A DNA stretch of 64,000 nucleotides, taken from the NCBI RefSeq assembly GCF_003018235.1, contig NZ_CP027437.1, one strand, 5' to 3'. Position numbers and translations under genes: made by a program. Shown here one piece after another: positions 4,300-52,559 of the stretch. Each line of letters starts with the position of its first letter. Positions within the stretch are counted from its first letter, which is position 1. The notes under the pieces were generated by a model, which worked only from the letters and a program-made list of their open reading frames with translations, was not told the origin of the DNA and ran no database searches. Origin of the DNA: Escherichia coli (GTDB lineage Bacteria; Pseudomonadota; Gammaproteobacteria; Enterobacterales; Enterobacteriaceae).

Positions 4300-4455
4300 C
4301 CGCTTATTCTCAGGGCGGGGCGAAATTCCCCACCGGCGGTAAATCAACTCAGTTGAAAGCCCGCGAGCGCTTTGGGTGCGAACTCAAAGGACAGCAGATC
4401 CGGTGTAATTCCGGGGCCGACGGTTAGAGTCCGGATGGGAGAGAGTAACGATTCT
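4300..4455 (+). ncRNA. FMN riboswitch (RFN element) in the ribB leader
   Basis: Conserved RFN motifs GGGGCGAAATTCCCCACCGGCGGTAAA ... AGCCCGCGAGCGC ... GGACAGCAGATCCGGTGTAATTCCGGGGCCGACGGTTAGAGTCCGGATGGGAGAGAGT directly upstream of ribB. Confidence 0.85.
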
Positions 4456-13084: not shown

Positions 13085-14566
13085 TCAGTTACGGAAAGGG
13101 TTATGACCGTTACTGGTGGTAGTGCGTGCGGATGTTTGCTGAACGACGGGTGCCGGGCTATCAGGCGCATAGCCATCAGCAATAGCATTCTGTTCCGGCG
13201 TTTGCGGGGCAACGTTTTCCGGATTAGTGGAAACCGGTTTGCTCAGCGCATTGTTCAGTGCCAGCAGATCCTGCTCGTTCAACGTACCCAGAGCTGACTT
13301 AATATTCAACTGGTTAATCAGGTAGTTATAACGCGCATTTGCCAGCTCTTGCTTAGCGTTGTACAGCGTGGTGGTCGCATCCAACACATCAACAATGGTA
13401 CGCGTACCGACCGAGTAACCCGCCTCCATCGCGTCTAATGAGCTTTGAGCGGAAACTACGGCTTGTTTGTAGGCGTTAATGCTACTGATAGAAGCATTAA
13501 TGTTGTTGAAGGAGGAACGTACGGTTTGTACGACGCTACGATGCGCGCTTTCCAGTTGCTCGCTGGCACCAACAAAGTTGTACTGGGCCTGTTTCACCTG
13601 CGAGTTAACCATTCCGCCCTGATAAATCGGCAGCGAGAAGCTCAGGCCAACTTTGTTCTGGCCCATATTGCTATCGTCATACTGGGTACCAGCGGCACCA
13701 CGGGTTTTCGAACCGCTATAAGAGGTGTCAGAAATCCCGGTAGAAGCCGTTAAATCCAGAGTCGGTAAGTGACCATCCTGCGCCTGGCGAATTTGCTCGC
13801 GTGCCAGGTCCTGGCTCAAGCGCGCCTGTAACAACGACAGGTTGCGTTTTTCGGCTTCTTTCAGCAGCGTGTTAACCGGCTGTGGTTTGTCGGTTTTAAA
13901 GTTTTCGACATTCAGCGCCGCCAGTTCCGGATAGTAGTTACCGGTGATCTGGCGCAGCTGCTCTACCGCGTTATCAAGGTTATTACGTGCGGTCACTTCG
14001 TTCGCCAGCACGGTATCGTACTGTGCGCGGGCGTTCTGCACGTCAGTGATTGCTACCAGGCCCACGTTAAAACGTTGGGTGGTTTGATCTAATTGACGGT
14101 AGATCGCTTCTTTTTGCGCCTGTGTATAGGAAAGAACGTCAATAGCATTCAACACGTTGAAATAAGCGGTCGCGGTGTTGAGGATCAAGGTTTGTTGATC
14201 GGTCTGATACGTGACGTCCTGAATCCCAGCTGCTTTTTCCTGCAGCGTTAACGCACGCCATTTCGACATATCAAAAATGGATTGAGTTAACTGCAGGGAC
14301 GCACTGGTCGCGTTAGAGTTGATGCCGTTCGCGTCGCGGTAGCCGTTGCTATAGGTGTAATCTGCACCTAAACCTAGCTGTGGCAGTAATGGACTGCGCG
14401 CTTCATTAATTTTTTCAAAGGCAGCATCACGATCGGCGGCAGACTTACGCAATTCCGGGTTACTAAGGCGTGCTTGCTGATAAACTTGCATCAGGTTCTC
14501 GGCCTGGCTCAACGAACTGAACCCAGAAAGGCTCAGGCCGATAAGAATGGGGAGCAATTTCTTCAT
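13085..14566 (-). CDS. tolC: TolC, outer membrane efflux channel
   Basis: 493-aa translation from MKKLLPILIGLSLSGFSSLSQA... matches TolC. Confidence 0.95.
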   Translation of the reverse strand: MKKLLPILIGLSLSGFSSLSQAENLMQVYQQARLSNPELRKSAADRDAAFEKINEARSPLLPQLGLGADYTYSNGYRDANGINSNATSASLQLTQSIFDMSKWRALTLQEKAAGIQDVTYQTDQQTLILNTATAYFNVLNAIDVLSYTQAQKEAIYRQLDQTTQRFNVGLVAITDVQNARAQYDTVLANEVTARNNLDNAVEQLRQITGNYYPELAALNVENFKTDKPQPVNTLLKEAEKRNLSLLQARLSQDLAREQIRQAQDGHLPTLDLTASTGISDTSYSGSKTRGAAGTQYDDSNMGQNKVGLSFSLPIYQGGMVNSQVKQAQYNFVGASEQLESAHRSVVQTVRSSFNNINASISSINAYKQAVVSAQSSLDAMEAGYSVGTRTIVDVLDATTTLYNAKQELANARYNYLINQLNIKSALGTLNEQDLLALNNALSKPVSTNPENVAPQTPEQNAIADGYAPDSPAPVVQQTSARTTTSNGHNPFRN

Positions 14567-14641: not shown

Positions 14642-14669
14642 ACCGCAAAAGGTTGGCGTTACGTGCCAT
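14642..14669 (-). promoter_or_regulatory. Possible mar/sox/rob box in the tolC promoter region
   Basis: Minus-strand GCACGTAACGCCAACCTTTTGCGGT resembles the MarA/SoxS/Rob box (GCAC ... RYYAAAY); by-eye match only. Confidence 0.3.
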
Positions 14670-21755: not shown

Positions 21756-22565
21756 GTGGCACATAACGCAAAAGGGCAGGGGCTGATCCTCGACAATGTT
21801 TCTGCCGGGTATCACACGAAAATCATTGTTGATGGCGTTTCTTTCTCCGTTCCCACAGAAAAAATGACCGTTCTGGTTGGGGCAAACGGCTGTGGAAAGT
21901 CGACGTTGCTCAGCACCATTGCACGTATCTTGCAACCTATGGGCGGCTCGATATTGCTGGATGGTAAAGCGATTCACGAGCAACCAACGAAAGCGTTATC
22001 CCGTAGACTTGGGATCTTGCCGCAGTCGCCATTATTGCCGGAGGGCTTAACCGTTTATGAACTGGTGTCGCGTGGGCGTTTTCCCTGGCAGAATTTCATT
22101 CGTCAATGGAGCGACGCCGACGAGCAGGCGGTAGAAGAGGCCCTGAAATTAACCGGTACGCAGGAGTTTGCACATTTACCTGTTGAAAAACTTTCTGGTG
22201 GGCAGCGCCAGCGTTGCTGGATTGCGATGGTGTTGGCGCAAAAGACGCCTTATATCCTGCTGGATGAACCCACAACCTGGCTTGATTTACGTTATCAGGT
22301 TGAAATTCTTGAGTTATTACATGATTTAACGCGTCATCACGGGCGTACAGTCGTCGTGGTGTTGCATGATCTGAATTTTGCCGTCAATTATGGTGATACG
22401 TTGATATTTTTACGCCAGGGGAAAGTGGTGCGTGTGTTGAATGAGGGGGAGCATTGCACGCCTGAGCTGGTAAAAGCTGTCTTTGACGTTGATGTTCACG
22501 CATCAATAAATCCTCTGACGGGAAAGCCGTTCTTCATGCCGTTTCGTGGTGTAGAAAAAGTATGA
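21756..22565 (+). CDS. ABC transporter ATP-binding protein (FepC/FecE-like)
   Basis: Walker A GANGCGKST, signature LSGGQRQR, Walker B ILLDEPT, H-loop; GTG start. Confidence 0.85.
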   Translation: MAHNAKGQGLILDNVSAGYHTKIIVDGVSFSVPTEKMTVLVGANGCGKSTLLSTIARILQPMGGSILLDGKAIHEQPTKALSRRLGILPQSPLLPEGLTVYELVSRGRFPWQNFIRQWSDADEQAVEEALKLTGTQEFAHLPVEKLSGGQRQRCWIAMVLAQKTPYILLDEPTTWLDLRYQVEILELLHDLTRHHGRTVVVVLHDLNFAVNYGDTLIFLRQGKVVRVLNEGEHCTPELVKAVFDVDVHASINPLTGKPFFMPFRGVEKV

Positions 22566-23545
22566 TGCGCACAGGGCTGGTTACTGTAATTTTCCTCGCC
22601 TTACTGCTGGTGGGATGCGTGGTATATCCAGGGATTGGTGCCCGATTTATTGCACCACAAACGGTGTTGCAGGCATTTCTTCATTTTGAACCGCAAAACT
22701 TCGATCACAACGTAATTGTAAGACTCCGTTTGCCGCGTTTAGCGGCAGCATTGCTTACCGGTGCTTCTCTTGGAGTTGCTGGTGCTTTGTTGCAGGCTGT
22801 CATTCGTAACCCATTGGGGGAGCCACATATTTTAGGCTTAAATGCCGGAGCCGCTCTTGCTGTCGTTGCTGCCAGTGCGCTTGGGCTGGCCTTTCCGGTT
22901 GGACGCCCACTGCTGGCATCTACGGGCGGCGCGTTATTGTTCCTGTTGATATTGCTGCTTTCCTCCGCAGGGCGTTCAGGGTTAACGCCAATGAAAGTTA
23001 CTTTATGCGGCGTGGCGCTATCGGCGTTCGTGTCCTCAATAACGGCTGCAATCCTGATTCTTGACGAACAAACACTGCTGGCGATGCGGACATGGCTAGC
23101 AGGTGATTTAGCGGGGCAGGATTGGGCGACGCTGGGTACGTCCGCCTGGTTTTCTCTGGGGGGGGTTGTGTTAGCCATTTACCTTGCGCCCTCTCTTAAC
23201 ATGTTGGCACTGGGTGATCGCATGGCGCAGGGGCTGGGCGTCTCGGTACTCCGCACGCGAACATTCACTCTGCTTGCGATCGCGTTGCTCTGTGGCGCAG
23301 CCGTATCGATTGCTGGCCCCATTGGTTTTGTCGGTCTGCTAGTACCGCAGATTGTCAGGCGTCTGGTATCTGCGGATCTGCGCGTTCTGCTCCCTCTTTC
23401 AGCTTGTGTCGGTGCCTTACTGCTATTACTGGCAGATATTATTGCCCGGACGCTTTTCACGCCCCATGAGCTGGCGACCGGTGTCATGACGGCGTTAGTT
23501 GGTGCGCCCGTTTTTGTCATTATGGCGACGAGGATGTTCAAATGA
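22562..23545 (+). CDS. ABC transporter permease, FecCD family
   Basis: 327-aa multi-TM ORF; start overlaps the ATPase stop. Confidence 0.85.
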   Translation: MMRTGLVTVIFLALLLVGCVVYPGIGARFIAPQTVLQAFLHFEPQNFDHNVIVRLRLPRLAAALLTGASLGVAGALLQAVIRNPLGEPHILGLNAGAALAVVAASALGLAFPVGRPLLASTGGALLFLLILLLSSAGRSGLTPMKVTLCGVALSAFVSSITAAILILDEQTLLAMRTWLAGDLAGQDWATLGTSAWFSLGGVVLAIYLAPSLNMLALGDRMAQGLGVSVLRTRTFTLLAIALLCGAAVSIAGPIGFVGLLVPQIVRRLVSADLRVLLPLSACVGALLLLLADIIARTLFTPHELATGVMTALVGAPVFVIMATRMFK

Positions 23546-24591
23546 GTCGGATAATGAACGTCGGGCTACGTCCACTACGTGTTGGTAAGTTTTCGACACT
23601 GGTACGCCCTAAAAATCTGGTGTTGCTTGGTGGGCTGTTTCTGTTTGCGGTTGGAATACTGATATTCGGTCTGATGCATGGTTCTTTTTCTGTCCCAGCA
23701 TCGGAAGTAGGACGAGCGTTGTTTGCTCCAGAAAACGTAAGCACAGACGCACGTTATATTGTGCAGGATATTCGCTTGCCGAGAGTCATCATGGCATTGC
23801 TATGCGGAGCCATGTTAGGTATGGCGGGGGCCGCGATGCAATCCATTGCGCGTAACGGCCTTGCCGATCCTGGTTTAATCGGCGTCAAAGAAGGATGTAG
23901 CGTGGCGGTGCTGTGGCTGATTTTCCAGTTTCCAATGCTGGGAATGTTCTGGCGTCCAGTGGCTGGTCTTGCTGGTGGCTTGTTGGTGGCTTTAATCGTG
24001 ATTTTTTGTGCGCGCGATATTTCCCGCCCGCGATTTGTTCTGATTGGTATTGGTGTTTCCTGGTTTTTCGCCGCCGGTATCGGTGTATTTATGACCACTG
24101 CAGATGTTCGAGATGTACAAACTGCATTGATGTGGTTATCGGGAAGCCTGCATGCAGCTAACTGGATGTTAGTCGGTATTTCAGCCTGTTGGATGTTGCC
24201 AGCCGCTCTTTTATTGCTGTTCACCGCCAGGACGGCAGATATCGCTCTGCTTGGTCATCAGGTTGCAACCGGGTTAGGGGTGAATAGTTCTCGTCTGGCG
24301 TTGTTACGTGTCGCCGCACCAATAATCCTGACCGCCGTCTGCGTTTCGTGTGTTGGTAACATCGGTTTTGTCGGATTGATAGCACCCCATATATCACGTT
24401 TTATTCTACGTGGCGGGCAGACGACATTACTGCTGGGGAGCGCCGTATCGGGGGCGTTGTTAGTCATCCTGGCGGATAGCATTGGTCGTTTGGCTTTTTT
24501 GCCTTTGCAACTGCCTGCCGGAATCATTATTTCATTGATTGGTGGACCATTCTTTTTGCTACTGCTCTGGCAGCGCAGGAACAGTTTTTAA
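23542..24591 (+). CDS. ABC transporter permease, FecCD family (second)
   Basis: 349-aa multi-TM ORF; start overlaps the previous stop. Confidence 0.85.
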   Translation: MSRIMNVGLRPLRVGKFSTLVRPKNLVLLGGLFLFAVGILIFGLMHGSFSVPASEVGRALFAPENVSTDARYIVQDIRLPRVIMALLCGAMLGMAGAAMQSIARNGLADPGLIGVKEGCSVAVLWLIFQFPMLGMFWRPVAGLAGGLLVALIVIFCARDISRPRFVLIGIGVSWFFAAGIGVFMTTADVRDVQTALMWLSGSLHAANWMLVGISACWMLPAALLLLFTARTADIALLGHQVATGLGVNSSRLALLRVAAPIILTAVCVSCVGNIGFVGLIAPHISRFILRGGQTTLLLGSAVSGALLVILADSIGRLAFLPLQLPAGIIISLIGGPFFLLLLWQRRNSF

Positions 24592-24601
24592 TGGGAGTTA
24601 T

Positions 24602-25549
24602 ATGCGTTTATTTTTTTCTCTGCTGATACTGTTGTCATTCTTTGCCCGAGCGACAGAACCTGTTCAGGTCTTTACTGATGATTTAGGGCGCAAAGTCACT
24701 GTTCCTGCTCATCCAAAGAGAATTGTCTCTTTACACGATCTTGATATCACTATTCCTCTGATTGAGCTCGGTGTACCTCCTGTCGCCAGCCACGGGCGAA
24801 CCCGGCCTGACGGTAGCCATTTCATTCGATCAGGCGCGTTATTGACAGGTGTCGACTTTGATAATTCATCGATCGCTTTTATTGGCACCGCTGATATTGA
24901 TATTGAAGCGATTGTGGCGGCAAAGCCTGACCTGATCATCACAGAACCGACCCGTAATACGCCCATTGAACAACTGGAAAAAATTGCGCCCACGGTGAGC
25001 ATTGATCATCTCAAAGGAGGCGCGCCAGAAATCTACCGCAAGCTGGCAGAACTTACAGGAACGCAGTCGCAGCTGGCGATACTTGAACGCCGCTATCAGG
25101 CACAAATCAATGCGCTGAAGGCGACGCTGGACAGCCAAAAAATAACGGTATCGGTGATTCAGGCAAATCAGGGAAAAATTAATGTGATGCATAGCTATCA
25201 TTCGCTGGGGCGGGTATTACGCGATGCTGGTTTTCGCTTTCCGCCGCTGATTGAGAGCATTCCTGAAGGTGGGCGAATGGGTGTGAGCGCAGAGCGTTTA
25301 CCTGAACTGGATGCCGATTTTGTTTTTGCAACCTGGCGCGGTGACACCGGTGGTAAACCTCAGGATGAGCTGGCAGCAATGGAAAAAGTCATGCCGGGAT
25401 GGTGTCAGTTTCTGACGGCCTGTCGTTCCGGGCGCTATGTGCTGATTTCTCGTGAAGAGGCGATTTCTAACTCCTTTGCATCTCTGGGGCTGATGGCTGC
25501 GCAGATACAATCACAAATTGCGGGACGACCTCTACCGGAGGCTAAATGA
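24602..25549 (+). CDS. Periplasmic substrate-binding protein (siderophore/cobalamin-type)
   Basis: 315 aa from MRLFFSLLILLSFFARA with signal peptide; GGAG RBS 4 nt upstream of ATG 24602. Confidence 0.8.
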   Translation: MRLFFSLLILLSFFARATEPVQVFTDDLGRKVTVPAHPKRIVSLHDLDITIPLIELGVPPVASHGRTRPDGSHFIRSGALLTGVDFDNSSIAFIGTADIDIEAIVAAKPDLIITEPTRNTPIEQLEKIAPTVSIDHLKGGAPEIYRKLAELTGTQSQLAILERRYQAQINALKATLDSQKITVSVIQANQGKINVMHSYHSLGRVLRDAGFRFPPLIESIPEGGRMGVSAERLPELDADFVFATWRGDTGGKPQDELAAMEKVMPGWCQFLTACRSGRYVLISREEAISNSFASLGLMAAQIQSQIAGRPLPEAK

Positions 25550-26433
25550 TCCAGAAAGACAAAACGCGGGTTGATATTTATGGTGAGTGTTTTCGCACTC
25601 GCGCGAGTCAGTTAACGCCTGGGTTAAGAGCTGTCGCAAGCTACATTAATGAGCATCGTGAAGTGGTACTCGAGCAAACGGCGATGGAAATTGCGGCCAC
25701 GTTGAACACTTCCGATGCCACAGTTATCAGGGCTATACAGGCTCTGGGGTTTGCCGGGCTGCGTGATCTGAAACGCACACTGGAACAGTGGCTTGGTCCA
25801 GCCCTTAGTTCCAGCGAAAAGATGTCTACGACGGTGAGTAACTTGACGTGCGATGTTAACACCGCAATCGACTTTGTTCTTGAAGGGCATTTGTATACTT
25901 GTAATGTCCTGTCAGAGCCTGAAAACCGCCACGCGCTTGAGCAAGCTGTAGCGTTGTTGGTGCAGGCACGGCAAGTCGCTATTTTTGGCATTGGCGCTTC
26001 GGGTATCCTGGCGGACTATACCGCACGACTATTCAACCGCATAGGTTTGCCTGCCACGGCACTAAACCGTACGGGTATTGGCCTTGCCGAGCAACTGATC
26101 GCGCTTCAACGTGGCGATGTTCTGATCATGATGGCGCAAAAATCTGCGCACCGGGAAGGGCTGACAACGCTTCGTGAGGCGAGGCGGCTGGGGATCCCTG
26201 TTATTTTGCTGACAAACGCGCTGGATTCACGTTTTAGCAAAGACGCCAGTATCGTGATTCATGTTCCGCGCGGGGATGAAAAGGGGAAAACGCCACTACA
26301 TGGTACGGTATTGTTGTGTCTGGAAATGATTGTCTGGTCGGTAGCTTCCGCAGTGCCGCAGCGTGCGGTTAAAACCATTAAGCGAATTAACGATTTCCAT
26401 CGAGGACTGAAAACGGGAAGAAAGAATGGCTAA
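25546..26433 (+). CDS. RpiR/MurR-family transcriptional regulator (N-terminal HTH, C-terminal SIS phosphosugar-binding domain)
   Basis: 295-aa ORF; HTH region then SIS-like VAIFGIGASG...; ATGA overlap with the binding-protein stop. Confidence 0.8.
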   Translation: MIQKDKTRVDIYGECFRTRASQLTPGLRAVASYINEHREVVLEQTAMEIAATLNTSDATVIRAIQALGFAGLRDLKRTLEQWLGPALSSSEKMSTTVSNLTCDVNTAIDFVLEGHLYTCNVLSEPENRHALEQAVALLVQARQVAIFGIGASGILADYTARLFNRIGLPATALNRTGIGLAEQLIALQRGDVLIMMAQKSAHREGLTTLREARRLGIPVILLTNALDSRFSKDASIVIHVPRGDEKGKTPLHGTVLLCLEMIVWSVASAVPQRAVKTIKRINDFHRGLKTGRKNG

Positions 26434-26477: not shown

Positions 26478-26792
26478 TTAAATCCCCGGTTGCAGAATAC
26501 GGATATTCATCTCCAGCACGTCGCCTTTTACGGCTTCGCTGTACGCCTTCATGTGCGGGGTTTGCAGATGCGCTTCAAGATGCGCGATGCTTTCCCACTG
26601 CTCAATCATCACGATAGAATCCGGTGCCATAGACTGGAAACTCACGCCAGCAGCGCAATCCACCATTGGCGCATAGCCGTGGCAACCTTCTTCTTTCAGT
26701 ACGGTTGGAACGATTTTAGCAAACTGATCCAATACTGCCTGACGGTGATGTTGACCAGGACGAGTACGGATTTCTGCGATTACGGTAAGCAT
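26478..26792 (-). CDS. ygiN: YgiN, quinol monooxygenase
   Basis: 104-aa ORF matching YgiN. Confidence 0.9.
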   Translation of the reverse strand: MLTVIAEIRTRPGQHHRQAVLDQFAKIVPTVLKEEGCHGYAPMVDCAAGVSFQSMAPDSIVMIEQWESIAHLEAHLQTPHMKAYSEAVKGDVLEMNIRILQPGI

Positions 26793-26822: not shown

Positions 26823-27404
26823 TTAACCAAAAATTTCCACAAGATGCTTGCGATATTCTTCAGTATAGCGGGGAACATCAGGCATTTTTATCACGTCATT
26901 AGCGATAAATGTCGGCAGCGGTTCCATGCCAAGGAATTGGTTTGCTTTATGGAACGGCAGATACACACCGTCAACGCCAACGCCGTGGAAGAACTGATCT
27001 TTTTCGGTGAAGGCTTCCATTGGTGCGTTCCAGGTCAGAGCAAGCATATATTTTTTGCCCTGTACCAGGCCGCCGGAACCGTATTTTTTCGACGGATCTT
27101 TGCGGGTACGACCATCGCTGGCATACAGAGTCCCGTGACCTTCGGTGAATACATCATCAATGTATTTTTTCACTGTCCACGGCGCGCCCATCCACCAGCC
27201 TGGCATCTGCCAGATCACCACATCAGCCCAGAGAAAGTTTTGTACTTCCGCTTTGACATCGTAGTTGCTGTCGGCGCGAACGATGCGAACATCATGCCCG
27301 AGGTCGCGCAGTGTGCCATCCGCGACTTCGGTCAGGGTGTCGTTCAGTTGACCATTGGAGTGGGCGAATTTTTTCGCGCCGTTGATAATCAGGATGTTGC
27401 TCAT
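26823..27404 (-). CDS. mdaB: MdaB, NADPH:quinone oxidoreductase
   Basis: 193-aa ORF matching MdaB. Confidence 0.9.
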   Translation of the reverse strand: MSNILIINGAKKFAHSNGQLNDTLTEVADGTLRDLGHDVRIVRADSNYDVKAEVQNFLWADVVIWQMPGWWMGAPWTVKKYIDDVFTEGHGTLYASDGRTRKDPSKKYGSGGLVQGKKYMLALTWNAPMEAFTEKDQFFHGVGVDGVYLPFHKANQFLGMEPLPTFIANDVIKMPDVPRYTEEYRKHLVEIFG

Positions 27405-27463
27405 TTTTTAACCTCAAGGTGAGACGTTTGTCGACTATAGTACGTCACAGAGCGGTACGGTGA

Positions 27464-27496
27464 AATTAGCAAAATGTGCAAAGTCTTTTGCTAATT
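27464..27496. promoter_or_regulatory. Perfect 11-bp inverted repeat upstream of mdaB, candidate operator
   Basis: AATTAGCAAAA-(11 bp)-TTTTGCTAATT, then direct repeat TAGCAAAAGTC; 60-90 bp upstream of the mdaB start. Confidence 0.3.
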
Positions 27497-27761
27497 TAGC
27501 AAAAGTCTGATCTTGCTCTGACTCACCGATGCAGGATAAATATTTTCTGAAAATGACAATACTGATAGCAATTTCTCATCATTCCAACTAGCACAGGGTT
27601 AATTTACAACGTTGGTGTGGACTTTCTGCGAGTTGATAATTGTGGTGTTGAATAACTAAAAATGAAAATATCAGCGTGTTACGCAGATTATTTTAAATAG
27701 ATTTACTGGAGGGTATCGAAAACCAGATCTCCGACTGGACTTTTTTAGAGAGTGCTAACAT

Positions 27762-28091
27762 ATGTTAAAGCATAAAATTCAAACAATATTTGAAGCTCTG
27801 TTATATATAATGCTTACTTATTGGTTAATAGATGCTTTTTTTGCTTTCAATAAGTATGACTGGATGCTTGAGTCGGGAGACAATATTTACAGTATACCTT
27901 CCGTTTCAGGCGAAGATCGTATATTGCAAGCAATGATTGCAGCATTTTTTCTTTTGACGCCACTTATTATTCTTATCTTAAGAAAACTCTTTATGCGGGA
28001 AATGTTCGAGTTTTGGCTATATGTATTCACGCTCGTTATTTGTTTGGTTTGTGGTTGGTGGCTTTTTTGGGGTCGGTTTATATTTTGCTAA
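27762..28091 (+). CDS. ygiZ: YgiZ, inner membrane protein
   Basis: 109-aa ORF with three predicted TM helices in the position of K-12 ygiZ. Confidence 0.7.
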   Translation: MLKHKIQTIFEALLYIMLTYWLIDAFFAFNKYDWMLESGDNIYSIPSVSGEDRILQAMIAAFFLLTPLIILILRKLFMREMFEFWLYVFTLVICLVCGWWLFWGRFIFC

Positions 28092-28139
28092 TAGTAAAAT
28101 CTATGAGAGTCGTTTTAACGGCTCTCATAGACAGAGAAG

Positions 28140-29489
28140 TTACCAGCTTACCTTCGCCTCAAATCCACCTTGTTCCGCATTCCCAAACTCAACATTCATG
28201 CCATGCAATTTGGCGATCCGCTGGACAATCGATAGCCCAAGTCCACTGCCGGTAGCGGTTTGTCCGGGTGGGCGATAGAAGCGTTCGCCAATTCTCGCCA
28301 GTGCCTCTGGCGTCACACCGGGGCCGTTATCCCTCACGATGAAATTTTCGGCATTCAGCGTGACGTCCACCACGCTGCCCTGTGGACTGTAGCGCACGGC
28401 GTTATCCAGAAGGTTTCGTACCAACAAACTTAGCAACAGCGGTTGTCCGGTGCGTTTGATGCCGTGGGCATTGAGTGTCAGTCGCACGTCAATTTTCGCC
28501 TGCTGCGCCGTGTGGTAAATATCCATCACCGATGATTGCAGGAGATCTTCAAGCGGGATCTCCGCGACGTCCTGAAGGTTATCCAGTGAGTCCAGCCGCG
28601 ATAGCGTGAGCAGTTGATCAACCAGACGAGTAGCACGATCGATTCCGGAATGTAATTGAAGCAGCGCTTTTTTCCGCGCCTGCGGATCATCGTCAGAGAG
28701 CTGCGCAACTTCGGTTTGCACTTTCAGCGCCGTTAACGGGCTACGAAGTTCGTGAGCTGCGTCGGAGGTAAAGCGTCGTTCTCGAACCATCATCGCATGT
28801 GTGCGGGCGAACAGTTGATTCAACGACTCAACCAGTGGACGCACTTCGCTGGGTACGCCCGTCGCGTTTAGTGGTTTTTCCGAGTCAGGGTCACGCATAC
28901 GTAGTGCCAGCGCCAGTTTGTTCAGCGGCGCGAGTTCACGACCCAGTAGTACCATCATGATGATTAACATAATCGGCAGTGCGACAAGCCACGGGATCAA
29001 TTGCCCTGCAACAATCGCCAGCGCCATGTCTTCGCGGTATTCCCATTCCTGACCAACAACGATGCGATATTTGCCATCAGGTGAGGTCATCCAGACAAAA
29101 CGCCAGGGATCGTCTTCACCGACCAGTTGCCCGTCAGCAAAACCTTCCCGTTGATAGCTATAGGGAATATCTTCTCCGTTATCGCCATCGTTAAGGACCA
29201 TTCTGCCGTCGTGGGTAAAGATGGCAAAGGTTAGCGCATCGTCATCAACATGACCGTGTTTTAATTTATTTGGCGTCTGTGCCATGCGATCTGCCGCGTT
29301 GATTTCGTTGAGATCGAGCGTACTTAACCGCTTGGCAAACAGCATCAGTTGGGTGTCGAACAACTCATCGACGTTATCCGTTGTTTGTTTCCAGGCGACA
29401 AAGCTGGAAAGCAGCCAGGTCACTGAGGCCAGAATTAAAAAGATTAGCGTCAGCCTGACTCGCAGACTAAGACGTTGGGTAAATTTCAT
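28140..29489 (-). CDS. qseC: QseC, sensor histidine kinase
   Basis: 449-aa ORF with two TM helices, HAMP, H-box and ATPase motifs. Confidence 0.9.
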
Positions 29490-30145
29490 TTCTCACCTAA
29501 TGTGTAGCCAATACCATGAACGGTACGAATAAAATCACTGCCGAGTTTGCGTCGCAGATGATGCACATGCACTTCAACGGCATTACTGGTGACCTCTTCG
29601 TCCCAGGTATACAGTTTCTCTTCAATCAGTTTGCGCGGCAGTACCCGACCAGCGTTACGCATCAGTAATTCCAGCAGGGCAAATTCTTTTGGTTTCAGAG
29701 TTAAGGGTTCGCCAGCCAGCGTGGCGATACGTTTGCCGGGGTCGAGCATGACGTTACCGTGGCGCAGTTCGTTGCTGGCCTGGCCGTTGGTTCGGCGCAT
29801 CAGAGCTTCCAGCCTGGCGGCGACTTCTATCAACGCAAAAGGTTTACACAGATAATCGTCAGCTCCCAGACGCAGCCCCTCTACACGTTCCGCTAACGCA
29901 TCGCGCGCGGTCAGGATCAGTACCGGCTCACGCTGACCTTTTTCTCGCCATTCGCGCAAAATATCGCGACCATCCATGCCTGGTAAGGTTAAATCCAGGA
30001 TCACCGCATCATAAGGCGCACTATATAGCGCCTCTTTTCCCTGACGACCTTGTGTAAACCAGTCGACGCTAAAACCCATTTTACTAAGGCCCGTTTTGAT
30101 GCCGTCGCCAATCAGCATGTCATCTTCTATCAGTAAAATTCGCAT
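29486..30145 (-). CDS. qseB: QseB, OmpR-family response regulator
   Basis: 219-aa receiver plus winged-helix ORF; 4-nt overlap with qseC. Confidence 0.9.
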
Positions 30146-30296
30146 TTTTTCATCCCTGCGATAACCGTATTTGCTGCCAGTAAACCGTGTTGTAACGCGC
30201 TCTGTACAGCATTAAATTTTATTTTTTTCCCTTAAGAAGTTGTTAAGGACTATCTTGTTAAATGCTCGGAAACAGACATTAAAGGGAGTAATAAAC

Positions 30297-52371: not shown

Positions 52372-52559
52372 TCAAACATACGTATTATCTTGCTTTAATT
52401 AATTACACTAATGCTTCTTCCCTTCGTTTTAGCGCCCCGCCGCAGTATCATGATATCGATAACCATAATAAATGTGTGGTAAATGGCGCATCGATCGCAT
52501 TATTGATTTTGCGATTGAGGCAAAATATATGCCAGGTCTTCGCAACGGAATAACTATAA

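What the first reader, a model, noticed from the sequence alone, without database searches (positions are those of the whole stretch)
27405..27761. Perfect 11-bp inverted repeat plus direct repeat in the mdaB/ygiZ divergent promoter region
AATTAGCAAAA-(11 bp)-TTTTGCTAATT at 27464-27496 is followed immediately by TAGCAAAAGTC. A perfect palindrome of this length at 60-90 bp upstream of mdaB is unlikely by chance and looks like a dimeric regulator operator. mdaB is a redox-stress gene, so a dedicated repressor site is plausible. I cannot assign it to a known regulator from sequence alone.
Basis: seen in the sequence. Interest (0 to 1): 0.35.

Follow-up and report, generated by a model that had tools for sequence, protein, structure and literature searches.

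The report
LysR-type operator upstream of mdaB
The palindrome is real, but it is a by-product of three TTTTGC half-sites that most likely form the binding site of the uncharacterised LysR-type regulator YafC at the promoter of the quinone reductase gene mdaB, overlapped by a MarA/SoxS/Rob box; the same site recurs upstream of dkgB and yafC, which gives YafC a testable function.

Summary
The inverted repeat exists. It has 12-nt perfect arms (27463-27474 / 27486-27497) with an 11-nt gap, and arises in 0.05% of shuffles. It is not the conserved unit. The perfect form occurs in 218 of 5,426 E. coli genomes; K-12 has 11/12. Its outer bases fall in a variable spacer, while its "spacer" is invariant across 82 Enterobacteriaceae.

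The conserved sequence, in mdaB orientation, is ATTATTGC-N7-GCAAAAGACTTTGCACATTTTGCTnATTT. The dyad centre lies 53 bp upstream of a conserved -10 hexamer, which puts it at about -65.

The same dyad and geometry occur upstream of dkgB, and the dyad abuts the yafC start codon. In one bacterium a YafC orthologue sits divergently next to mdaB, with this block between them. YafC's closest solved relative is Neisseria CrgA, which activates mdaB. CrgA's published footprint aligns in register with the block.

I conclude that this is a LysR-type operator, with a recognition site and an activation site, most likely bound by YafC. Its activation half doubles as a marbox, which fits mdaB's known membership of the mar regulon.

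"Dedicated repressor" is not supported. Protein binding has not been shown.

The parts
27484..27506 (-). Recognition site (RBS-like dyad). In mdaB orientation it reads (A/G)ACTTTTGC-TAAATTA-GCAAAAGA. The genus-wide consensus is ATTATTGC-N7-GCAAAAGA, which has the T-N11-A form. Its centre is at 27495.
   Evidence: Both half-sites are 74-82/82 conserved and the N7 is variable. The same dyad occurs upstream of dkgB and in the yafC leader, and in the yafC-mdaB intergenic region of L088. It aligns in register with CrgA footprint site 2. The centre lies 53 bp from the -10 hexamer in 76/84 unique sequences.
27453..27482 (-). Activation-site-like half of the block. In mdaB orientation it reads TTTGCACATTTTGCTAATTT followed by CACCGTACCG. 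It overlaps the -35 region of the predicted promoter.
   Evidence: Positions -78..-59 are nearly invariant and -58..-49 are moderately conserved. A related element, CTCTGCATTTTACGCTCTTTTTC, occupies the same place upstream of dkgB. TTTGCAC is also present in the CrgA footprint.
27463..27482 (-). Embedded marbox candidate, TTTGCACATTTTGCTAATTT. It is in forward orientation and ends 20 bp before the -10 hexamer.
   Evidence: It matches AYnGCACnnWnnRYYAAAYn at 12 of 14 positions. Twelve of 15 bases are identical to the mar marbox core CCACGTTTTGCTAAA. PMC12052159 Table S2 lists it as a predicted marbox, GCACATTTTGCTAAT. Papers cite mdaB as a mar regulon member and report it as RamA-dependent.
27463..27497 (.). 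It is formed by the TTTTGC half-site of the activation site and the promoter-proximal half of the recognition dyad, plus Escherichia-specific flanking bases.
27437..27442 (-). Predicted -10 hexamer of mdaB-ygiN, TACTAT (consensus TAnnAT).
   Evidence: The T, A, A and T positions are 77-82/82 conserved. Spacing to the dyad is constant.
27429..27430 (-). Predicted transcription start (conserved CA). It has not been mapped experimentally.
   Evidence: 81-82/82 conserved and 7-8 nt after the -10 hexamer. Primer extension failed in Salmonella. A large start-site list places other starts at about 27456 and 27504.
27412..27415 (-). Shine-Dalgarno sequence GAGG of mdaB.
   Evidence: 75-81/82 conserved.
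26823..27404 (-). mdaB, NADPH:quinone oxidoreductase. It is the first gene of the mdaB-ygiN unit (ygiN at 26478-26792).

Best explanation
The palindrome is part of a 54-bp operator-promoter block (27453-27506) that controls mdaB-ygiN.

The block has the two-part layout of a LysR-type regulator site. The first part is a symmetric recognition dyad, TTTTGC-N7-GCAAAA (T-N11-A form), centred about 65 bp upstream of the predicted transcription start. The second part is a less symmetric activation site, reaching to the -35 region. The regulator is most likely YafC (b0208). YafC is the E. coli orthologue of Neisseria meningitidis CrgA, which binds the crgA-mdaB intergenic region and activates mdaB.

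Inferred mechanism: YafC sits on the dyad permanently. On sensing a quinone- or electrophile-type signal it repositions on the activation site and recruits RNA polymerase to a promoter that has a good -10 but no usable -35. The same box upstream of dkgB (an aldo-keto reductase) and over the yafC ribosome-binding site would give co-activation of dkgB and autorepression of yafC.

In Enterobacteriaceae the activation site also reads as a forward marbox (GCAC ... GCTAAT). MarA, SoxS, Rob or RamA monomers can therefore probably activate the same promoter independently.

What is shown: the sequences, their conservation, the shared geometry, the gene adjacency, the protein orthology and the match to the footprint. 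What is inferred: that YafC binds here, the direction of regulation, the signal, and the start site.
For: 1. Phylogenetic footprint. ATTATTGC (-102..-95) and GCAAAAGACTTTGCACATTTTGCTnATTT (-87..-59) are nearly invariant in 82 Enterobacteriaceae, with a variable N7 between them.

2. Geometry. The dyad centre lies 53 bp upstream of the first base of a conserved TAnnAT hexamer in 76/84 unique mdaB upstream sequences. The same 53 bp separates the dyad from CATAAT in 34/39 unique dkgB upstream sequences.

3. A paralogous block sits upstream of dkgB, the neighbour of yafC: ATTATTGC-N7-GCAAAAATCCTCTGCATTTTACGCTCTTTTTC. It is conserved across genera and has no marbox.

4. The yafC leader reads AATTTTGC-N7-GCAAnA-ATG in all 76 readable leaders among 80 YafC-orthologue loci, and in K-12.

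5. In locus L088 a LysR gene lies divergently next to mdaB, and the 145-bp spacer carries GGATTATTGC-TGTATGA-GCAAAAGAGTTTGTGCATTTTTATCATTTTA. That protein passes the NCBIfam YafC equivalog model (506.8 bits, cut-off 470). It is 74.8% identical to E. coli YafC. Its best solved relative is 3HHG, which is CrgA (E 1.4e-113).

6. PMC2724274 states that YafC is 59% identical to CrgA and that CrgA activates the divergent mdaB. It gives the 63-bp DNase footprint. The reverse complement of that footprint reads GATTATTTC-ATTTGAC-GCAAAAGTGTTT...TTTGCAC, in register with the enteric block.

7. In more distant relatives (Tenebrionibacter group L087/L090, Shimwellia L091, and L088) the dyad is kept while the marbox core GCAC is lost.

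8. Perfect TTTTGC-N7-GCAAAA occurs twice in the 64-kb window against 0.05 expected.

9. yafC-dkgB is present in 5,424 of 5,426 E. coli genomes.

10. For the marbox component.
Against: No binding experiment for YafC at mdaB was found. YafC ChIP-exo and ChIP-seq data sets exist, but their target lists were not readable here. The ChIP-exo authors proposed no function for YafC, which is surprising if mdaB and dkgB were strong peaks under their conditions.

In E. coli yafC is about 2.9 Mb from mdaB, so there is no local linkage.

The transcription start is predicted, not mapped. A large start-site list instead gives starts at -52 and -100 relative to the ATG, and primer extension failed in Salmonella.

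Local alignment of the CrgA footprint with the block is only modestly better than shuffles (p 0.03-0.06) because the sequences are A/T-rich.

For the marbox, matches of this quality are no more frequent in the window than in shuffles (12 found, 16.8 expected). GCAC lies 2 bp further from the -10 hexamer than in the class II micF promoter. mdaB is also absent from the list of high-confidence MarA targets.
Confidence: 0.68

Rival explanations
1. MarA/SoxS/Rob only. The block is one strong marbox (27463-27482) and a weaker tandem marbox 21 bp upstream (27484-27503). Both are bound by monomeric AraC-type activators, and no LysR regulator is involved.
For: Papers cite mdaB as a mar regulon member and report it as RamA-dependent. 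A published computational screen lists both units as predicted marboxes, GCACATTTTGCTAAT and GCTAAATTCGCAAAA. The proximal unit resembles the mar marbox. The two units are 21 bp apart, on the same face of the helix.
Against: In the distal unit the positions that should read A-C of the GCAC core fall in the freely variable N7, while bases outside a 20-bp marbox (ATT at -102..-100) are invariant. The same dyad is conserved upstream of dkgB and in the yafC leader, where no marbox can be read. Distant relatives keep the dyad and lose GCAC. The consensus match is not above chance.
Confidence: 0.14
2. A dedicated homodimeric repressor recognises the 12-bp arms AAATTAGCAAAA / TTTTGCTAATTT, two helical turns apart.
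For: The perfect inverted repeat is improbable by chance.
Against: The outer six bases of the right arm are not conserved outside Escherichia, and the left arm's partner bases vary. The perfect form is a 4% minority allele in E. coli. The spacer is more conserved than the arms. The position upstream of the -35 region suits activation rather than repression.
Confidence: 0.03
3. QseB (PreA in Salmonella) response-regulator site. The block mediates the 7- to 32-fold rise in mdaB seen when PreA is overproduced in Salmonella.
For: PMC2653508 reports PreA-dependent induction of mdaB. It also reports that preB and mdaB are not co-transcribed, and its authors propose PreA binding at mdaB-ygiN. The block directly follows qseC in most genera.
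Against: The ygiW-qseB region carries a PmrA/QseB-type direct repeat, CTTAAGAAGTTGTTAAGG (30231-30248). Nothing similar, and no shared 7-mer, exists in the mdaB block. The block also occurs at dkgB and yafC, far from qseBC.
Confidence: 0.05
4. RNA or DNA hairpin. The repeats form a stem-loop that terminates qseC transcription, or acts in the mdaB leader.
For: In E. coli a 9-bp stem can form (-8.9 kcal/mol centroid, z about -2.2 to -2.5). Salmonella shows no preB-mdaB co-transcript.
Against: The Klebsiella sequence folds no better than shuffles (z +0.31). The scan finds no terminator-like site. No Rfam family matches above threshold. The block lies upstream of the predicted start, and conservation is of primary sequence, including unpaired bases.
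Confidence: 0.03

Closest known systems
CrgA operator in the crgA-mdaB intergenic region of Neisseria meningitidis (LysR-type regulator; PDB 3HHG)
   Same: The target gene is the same (mdaB). The regulator is orthologous (YafC is 59% identical to CrgA). Both have a 50-60-bp two-part site with T-N11-A boxes. The sequences read in register: GATTATT(T/G)C-N7-GCAAAAG..TTT, followed by a TTTGCAC element. In both, the inner half-sites form a GCAAAA...TTTTGC inverted repeat (N12 in Neisseria, N11 here).
   Different: In E. coli the regulator gene is unlinked, about 2.9 Mb away. TTTGCAC lies one helical turn closer to the dyad. Extra copies of the box sit at dkgB and in the yafC leader. Binding has been shown only for CrgA.
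[quoted passage not shown]
   Same: A 20-bp asymmetric box with GCAC and a GCTAAT/YAAA element, in forward orientation, replaces a recognisable -35 hexamer. Papers cite mdaB as a mar regulon member and report it as RamA-dependent. Twelve of 15 core bases are identical to the mar marbox.
   Different: GCAC lies at about -49..-46 rather than -47..-44 as in micF. The box is embedded in a larger invariant block that also exists at a promoter without a marbox (dkgB). The GCAC core is lost in distant relatives. No ChIP or footprint evidence was found.
Generic LysR-type promoter architecture (recognition site near -65, activation site near -35 to -45, as in CbnR/BenM/OxyR-type promoters)
   Same: A 4+7+4 dyad of T-N11-A form is centred at about -65. 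A second, weaker site reaches the -35 region. The box lies over the regulator's own leader, which suggests autorepression.
   Different: The regulator is not divergently adjacent in Enterobacteriaceae. The oligomeric state (tetramer, or a CrgA-like octamer) is unknown.

Membership tests
LysR-type regulator operator (YafC/CrgA type) | Interrupted dyad of T-N11-A form with a variable interior | tested here: met
   TTTTGC-N7-GCAAAA at 27486-27504. Half-sites are conserved in 81/82 sequences and the N7 is variable.
LysR-type regulator operator (YafC/CrgA type) | Recognition site centred near -65 and a second site overlapping or adjoining the -35 region | tested here: met
   The dyad centre lies 53 bp upstream of the first base of the conserved -10 hexamer at both mdaB and dkgB. 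This rests on a predicted, unmapped start site.
LysR-type regulator operator (YafC/CrgA type) | Cognate regulator gene divergently adjacent to the target | tested here: not met
   In E. coli and in 80 enteric yafC loci, mdaB is not within 2.5 kb. The feature is met in locus L088 and in Neisseria.
LysR-type regulator operator (YafC/CrgA type) | The same box at the regulator's own gene (autoregulation) | tested here: met
   AATTTTGC-N7-GCAAnA abuts the yafC start codon in K-12 and in all 76 leaders that could be read.
LysR-type regulator operator (YafC/CrgA type) | Sequence correspondence with an experimentally footprinted site of the orthologous regulator | tested here: met
   The reverse complement of the CrgA footprint reads GATTATTTC-ATTTGAC-GCAAAAGTGTTT, against the enteric GATTATTGC-N7-GCAAAAGACTTT. 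Local alignment p is 0.03-0.06.
LysR-type regulator operator (YafC/CrgA type) | Direct binding of the protein and effector-dependent activation | not testable with these tools
   YafC ChIP-exo and ChIP-seq targets were not readable.
Marbox (MarA/SoxS/Rob/RamA site) | Match to AYnGCACnnWnnRYYAAAYn (consensus recalled from Martin et al. 1999) or to gcannwwntgnnaaa (PMC12052159) | tested here: inconclusive
   The match is 12/14 and 14/15, but matches of this quality are not enriched over shuffles (12 found against 16.8 expected). The known tolC marbox at 14651-14669 was recovered as a positive control.
Marbox (MarA/SoxS/Rob/RamA site) | Class II geometry: forward orientation, overlapping the -35, with GCAC at about -47..-44 | tested here: inconclusive
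   The orientation is forward, but GCAC would lie at -49..-46. The centre of the 15-mer is at -42/-43, which is inside one published window (-36 to -55) and at the edge of another (30-42).
Marbox (MarA/SoxS/Rob/RamA site) | Activator-dependent expression of the gene | tested here: met
   From the literature only. mdaB is named a mar regulon member (PMC2989944, PMC6561319) and drops 3.2-fold in a Salmonella ramA mutant (PMC3139621).
Marbox (MarA/SoxS/Rob/RamA site) | Demonstrated binding (ChIP, footprint) | tested here: not met
   mdaB is not in the EcoCyc high-confidence MarA target list reproduced in PMC12052159 Table S3. It is also not mentioned in the Salmonella ChIP-seq paper or its held supplement.
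Intrinsic terminator / structured RNA | Conserved stable hairpin followed by a U-tract, or an Rfam match | tested here: not met

The most novel reading that the evidence does not exclude
YafC is the long-unassigned quinone/electrophile-responsive activator of mdaB-ygiN in E. coli. It heads a small conserved detoxification regulon (mdaB-ygiN, dkgB, yafC itself, possibly a site at hybO). In Enterobacteriaceae its activation site has been co-opted as a marbox, so that two unrelated activator families (LysR and AraC/XylS) use the same 20 bp to drive one promoter.
Probability: 0.4. Interest if true: 0.65.

Novelty: new member of a known kind. Interest (0 to 1): 0.55.

Why it matters
YafC is still described as an uncharacterised transcription factor (PMC6237786 in 2018; PMC12192344 in 2025). 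None of the 32 papers in the searched library that mention YafC links it to E. coli mdaB or dkgB.

The comparative evidence here yields a concrete and cheap set of tests. It gives a binding motif (TTTTGC-N7-GCAAAA), three target promoters with identical geometry, and a candidate class of inducers borrowed from Neisseria CrgA.

It would also explain why the mdaB promoter is far more conserved than a degenerate marbox would require. And it would supply a worked example of two activator families sharing one site.

For genome annotation, the result shows that a perfect palindrome can be an accident of neighbouring half-sites rather than the functional unit.

Tried and rejected
- RNA hairpin or qseC terminator. 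The folds are weak and not conserved, with no terminator-like site and no Rfam family. The only hit was a sub-threshold MicA-like match at 27501-27584, 25.5 bits against a cut-off of 41.
- QseB/PreA box. There is no similarity to the CTTAAG-N5-GTTAAG repeat in the ygiW-qseB region.
- PtrR (YneJ). The one ChIP-exo paper that mentions mdaB does so only in a sentence about MarA.
- Sigma-54 promoter, LacI/PurR-type, MarR-type (TTGCC..GGCAA) and SlyA-type sites. I considered these by eye and rejected them on half-site spacing (my own knowledge of the consensus sequences).
- Other YafC-box matches in the window. Only the hybO upstream site was found.
- Neighbourhoods of MdaB in Neisseriaceae ESL0693 and Acinetobacter. 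Neither had an adjacent LysR gene or a box.
- Literature. Martin & Rosner 2002 and Shi et al. 2016 (yafC*) are not held. The supplements of the YafC ChIP studies are not held.
- The distance column of PMC12052159 Table S2 is internally inconsistent by 10 bp in many rows. I used only its absolute coordinates, calibrated on the mar marbox.

Full report
**Where the window is.** The window is E. coli, 100% identical to strain CFSAN061763 over the intergenic region. The local genes are ygiN (26478-26792, -), mdaB (26823-27404, -), ygiZ (27762-28091, +), qseC (28140-29489, -) and qseB (29486-30145, -).

**The observation.** The inverted repeat is real. Its arms are 27463-27474 and 27486-27497, 12 nt each, perfectly complementary, with 11 nt between them. 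A second, overlapping repeat lies at 27482-27494 / 27496-27508. A perfect repeat of this size arose once in 2,000 dinucleotide-preserving shuffles of the 357-bp region. The perfect form is a minority allele. The exact 58-bp sequence is in 218 of 5,426 complete E. coli genomes. The K-12 form, with G at 27492 and arms of 11/12, is in 4,799.

**What is conserved.** I fetched mdaB loci from 80 species of Enterobacteriaceae and aligned the upstream 130 bp. Positions below are relative to the mdaB ATG; the window coordinate is 27404 minus the position.
- ATTATTGC (-102..-95) is nearly invariant.
- The next 7 bp vary freely.
- GCAAAAGACTTTGCACATTTTGCTnATTT (-87..-59) is nearly invariant.
- A TAnnAT hexamer (-38..-33), a CA (-26/-25) and GAGG (-11..-8) follow.

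The palindrome as drawn is Escherichia-specific. The conserved symmetry is the neighbouring dyad, TTTTGC-N7-GCAAAA.

In O157:H7 and E. albertii ygiZ is absent and qseC ends a few bases beyond 27508. The block is thus the whole of the qseC-mdaB spacer in most genera.

**First lead: a marbox.** In mdaB orientation, TTTGCACATTTTGCTAATTT (27482-27463) fits the marbox consensus at 12 of 14 positions (the consensus is recalled from Martin et al. 1999). It shares 12 of 15 core bases with the mar marbox.

The literature gives the following:
- mdaB is cited as a mar regulon member (PMC2989944, PMC6561319).
- mdaB falls 3.2-fold in a Salmonella ramA mutant (PMC3139621).
- A 2025 computational screen lists both GCACATTTTGCTAAT and the upstream GCTAAATTCGCAAAA as predicted marboxes (PMC12052159 Table S2).

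Three points weaken the marbox as a full explanation:
- Matches of this quality are no more common in the window than in shuffles (12 against 16.8). The known tolC marbox upstream of tolC was recovered as a control.
- mdaB is not among the high-confidence MarA targets.
- GCAC would lie at about -49..-46, against -47..-44 in the class II micF complex.

A degenerate 20-bp box also does not explain 37 invariant bases.

**Second lead: a LysR-type site.** The distal dyad has the T-N11-A form and lies about 65 bp upstream of the predicted start. A related half-dyad (TTGC-N7-GCTA) lies 21 bp downstream. This is the recognition-site plus activation-site layout of LysR regulators.

There is a precedent. 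In N. meningitidis the LysR regulator CrgA binds the crgA-mdaB spacer and activates mdaB (PMC2724274). I therefore looked at MdaB neighbourhoods in other taxa. In locus L088 a LysR gene lies divergently next to mdaB. The spacer carries GGATTATTGC-TGTATGA-GCAAAAGAGTTTGTGCATTTTTATCATTTTA, which is the same block but without GCAC or GCTAA.

That protein is a YafC orthologue on three counts:
- It passes the NCBIfam equivalog model for YafC (506.8 bits, cut-off 470).
- It is 74.8% identical to E. coli YafC.
- Its best solved relative is 3HHG (E 1.4e-113), which is CrgA.

The CrgA paper itself calls YafC the close E. coli homologue, at 59% identity. The reverse complement of the CrgA footprint reads GATTATTTC-ATTTGAC-GCAAAAGTGTTT...TTTGCAC. 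This is in register with the enteric block, with TTTGCAC one helical turn further away.

**Independent copies of the box.** E. coli yafC has TATTTTGC-AACAGGA-GCAAAA directly before its ATG. Among 80 YafC-orthologue loci from metagenomes, all 76 leaders that could be read keep AATTTTGC-N7-GCAAnA-ATG.

Unexpectedly, the same loci carry a third conserved box upstream of dkgB, the convergent neighbour of yafC. It reads ATTATTGC-N7-GCAAAAATCCTCTGCATTTTACGCTCTTTTTC, followed by CATAAT.

The distance from the dyad centre to the first base of the -10 hexamer is 53 bp in 76/84 unique mdaB sequences and in 34/39 unique dkgB sequences. The dkgB block cannot be read as a marbox.

Distant relatives (Tenebrionibacter group, Shimwellia) keep the mdaB dyad but lose GCAC. 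yafC-dkgB is present in 5,424 of 5,426 E. coli genomes.

**Conclusion.** The element is best read as a YafC (CrgA-type) operator with a recognition site (27484-27506) and an activation site (27453-27482) in front of a promoter with a -10 hexamer at 27437-27442. A marbox is embedded in the activation site.

The inner half-sites of the two CrgA boxes do the same in Neisseria (GCAAAA-N12-TTTTGC).

The proposed mechanism is inferred by analogy with CrgA and other LysR regulators. YafC is bound constitutively. A quinone- or electrophile-derived signal repositions it on the activation site, and RNA polymerase is recruited. MarA, SoxS or Rob provide a parallel input. From memory, Hayashi et al. 1996 reported that 2-methylene-4-butyrolactone induces MdaB in E. 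coli. The same compound induces mdaB through CrgA in Neisseria.

**Weak points.**
- No YafC binding data could be read, and the ChIP-exo authors assigned YafC no function.
- The start site is predicted. A large start-site list gives -52 and -100 instead, and primer extension failed in Salmonella.
- PreA (QseB) overproduction raises mdaB in Salmonella, but no QseB-type repeat is present.
- Hairpin and terminator readings fail on conservation.

**Novelty.** The kind of element (a LysR operator, and the CrgA-mdaB pair) is known. The assignment of YafC to mdaB-ygiN, dkgB and its own leader in Enterobacteriaceae was not found in the searched library. Of 32 papers that mention YafC, none links it to E. 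coli mdaB or dkgB. It may nevertheless already sit in unpublished or supplementary ChIP tables.

Noticed in passing
window 52507-52525: A second perfect TTTTGC-N7-GCAAAA dyad (TTTTGCGATTGAGGCAAAA) ends 35 bp before the hybO (hydrogenase-2 small subunit) start codon. Two perfect matches occur in the window against 0.05 expected. The surrounding 101 bp are at least 99% identical in 5,417 E. coli genomes. It is a possible further YafC-type site, but its position suits repression rather than activation. Conservation outside E. coli was not tested.
   Followed up: partly
L092 1058-1079 (K-12 229,057-229,078) and L093-L172 at about 4300-4345: A conserved YafC-type block lies upstream of dkgB, with the same 53-bp distance to its -10 hexamer as at mdaB. 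This suggests that dkgB belongs to the same regulon.
   Followed up: yes
window 27509-28139: ygiZ (DUF2645 membrane protein) and its upstream region form an insertion/deletion polymorphism. It is absent in O157:H7 (L003) and E. albertii (L006). One junction lies immediately after the mdaB operator. The ygiZ-proximal intergenic DNA is only about 88% identical across most E. coli, unusually divergent for the species.
   Followed up: partly
window about 22000-26433: Between ygiN and parE this strain (like O157:H7) carries a FecCD-type iron-siderophore ABC transporter and a MurR/RpiR regulator. K-12 lacks both.
   Followed up: no
window 30231-30248: CTTAAGAAGTTGTTAAGG in the ygiW-qseB intergenic region is a PmrA/QseB-type direct repeat with 11-bp period. 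It is presumably the QseB autoregulatory site.
   Followed up: no
window 14651-14669 (-): The known tolC marbox (ATGGCACGTAACGCCAACC) lies 85-103 bp upstream of the tolC start at 14566. It served as a positive control for the marbox scan.
   Followed up: yes
PMC12052159 Table S2: The 'distance to TSS' column differs by exactly 10 bp from the difference of the listed coordinates in many rows. Only the absolute coordinates should be trusted.
   Followed up: partly
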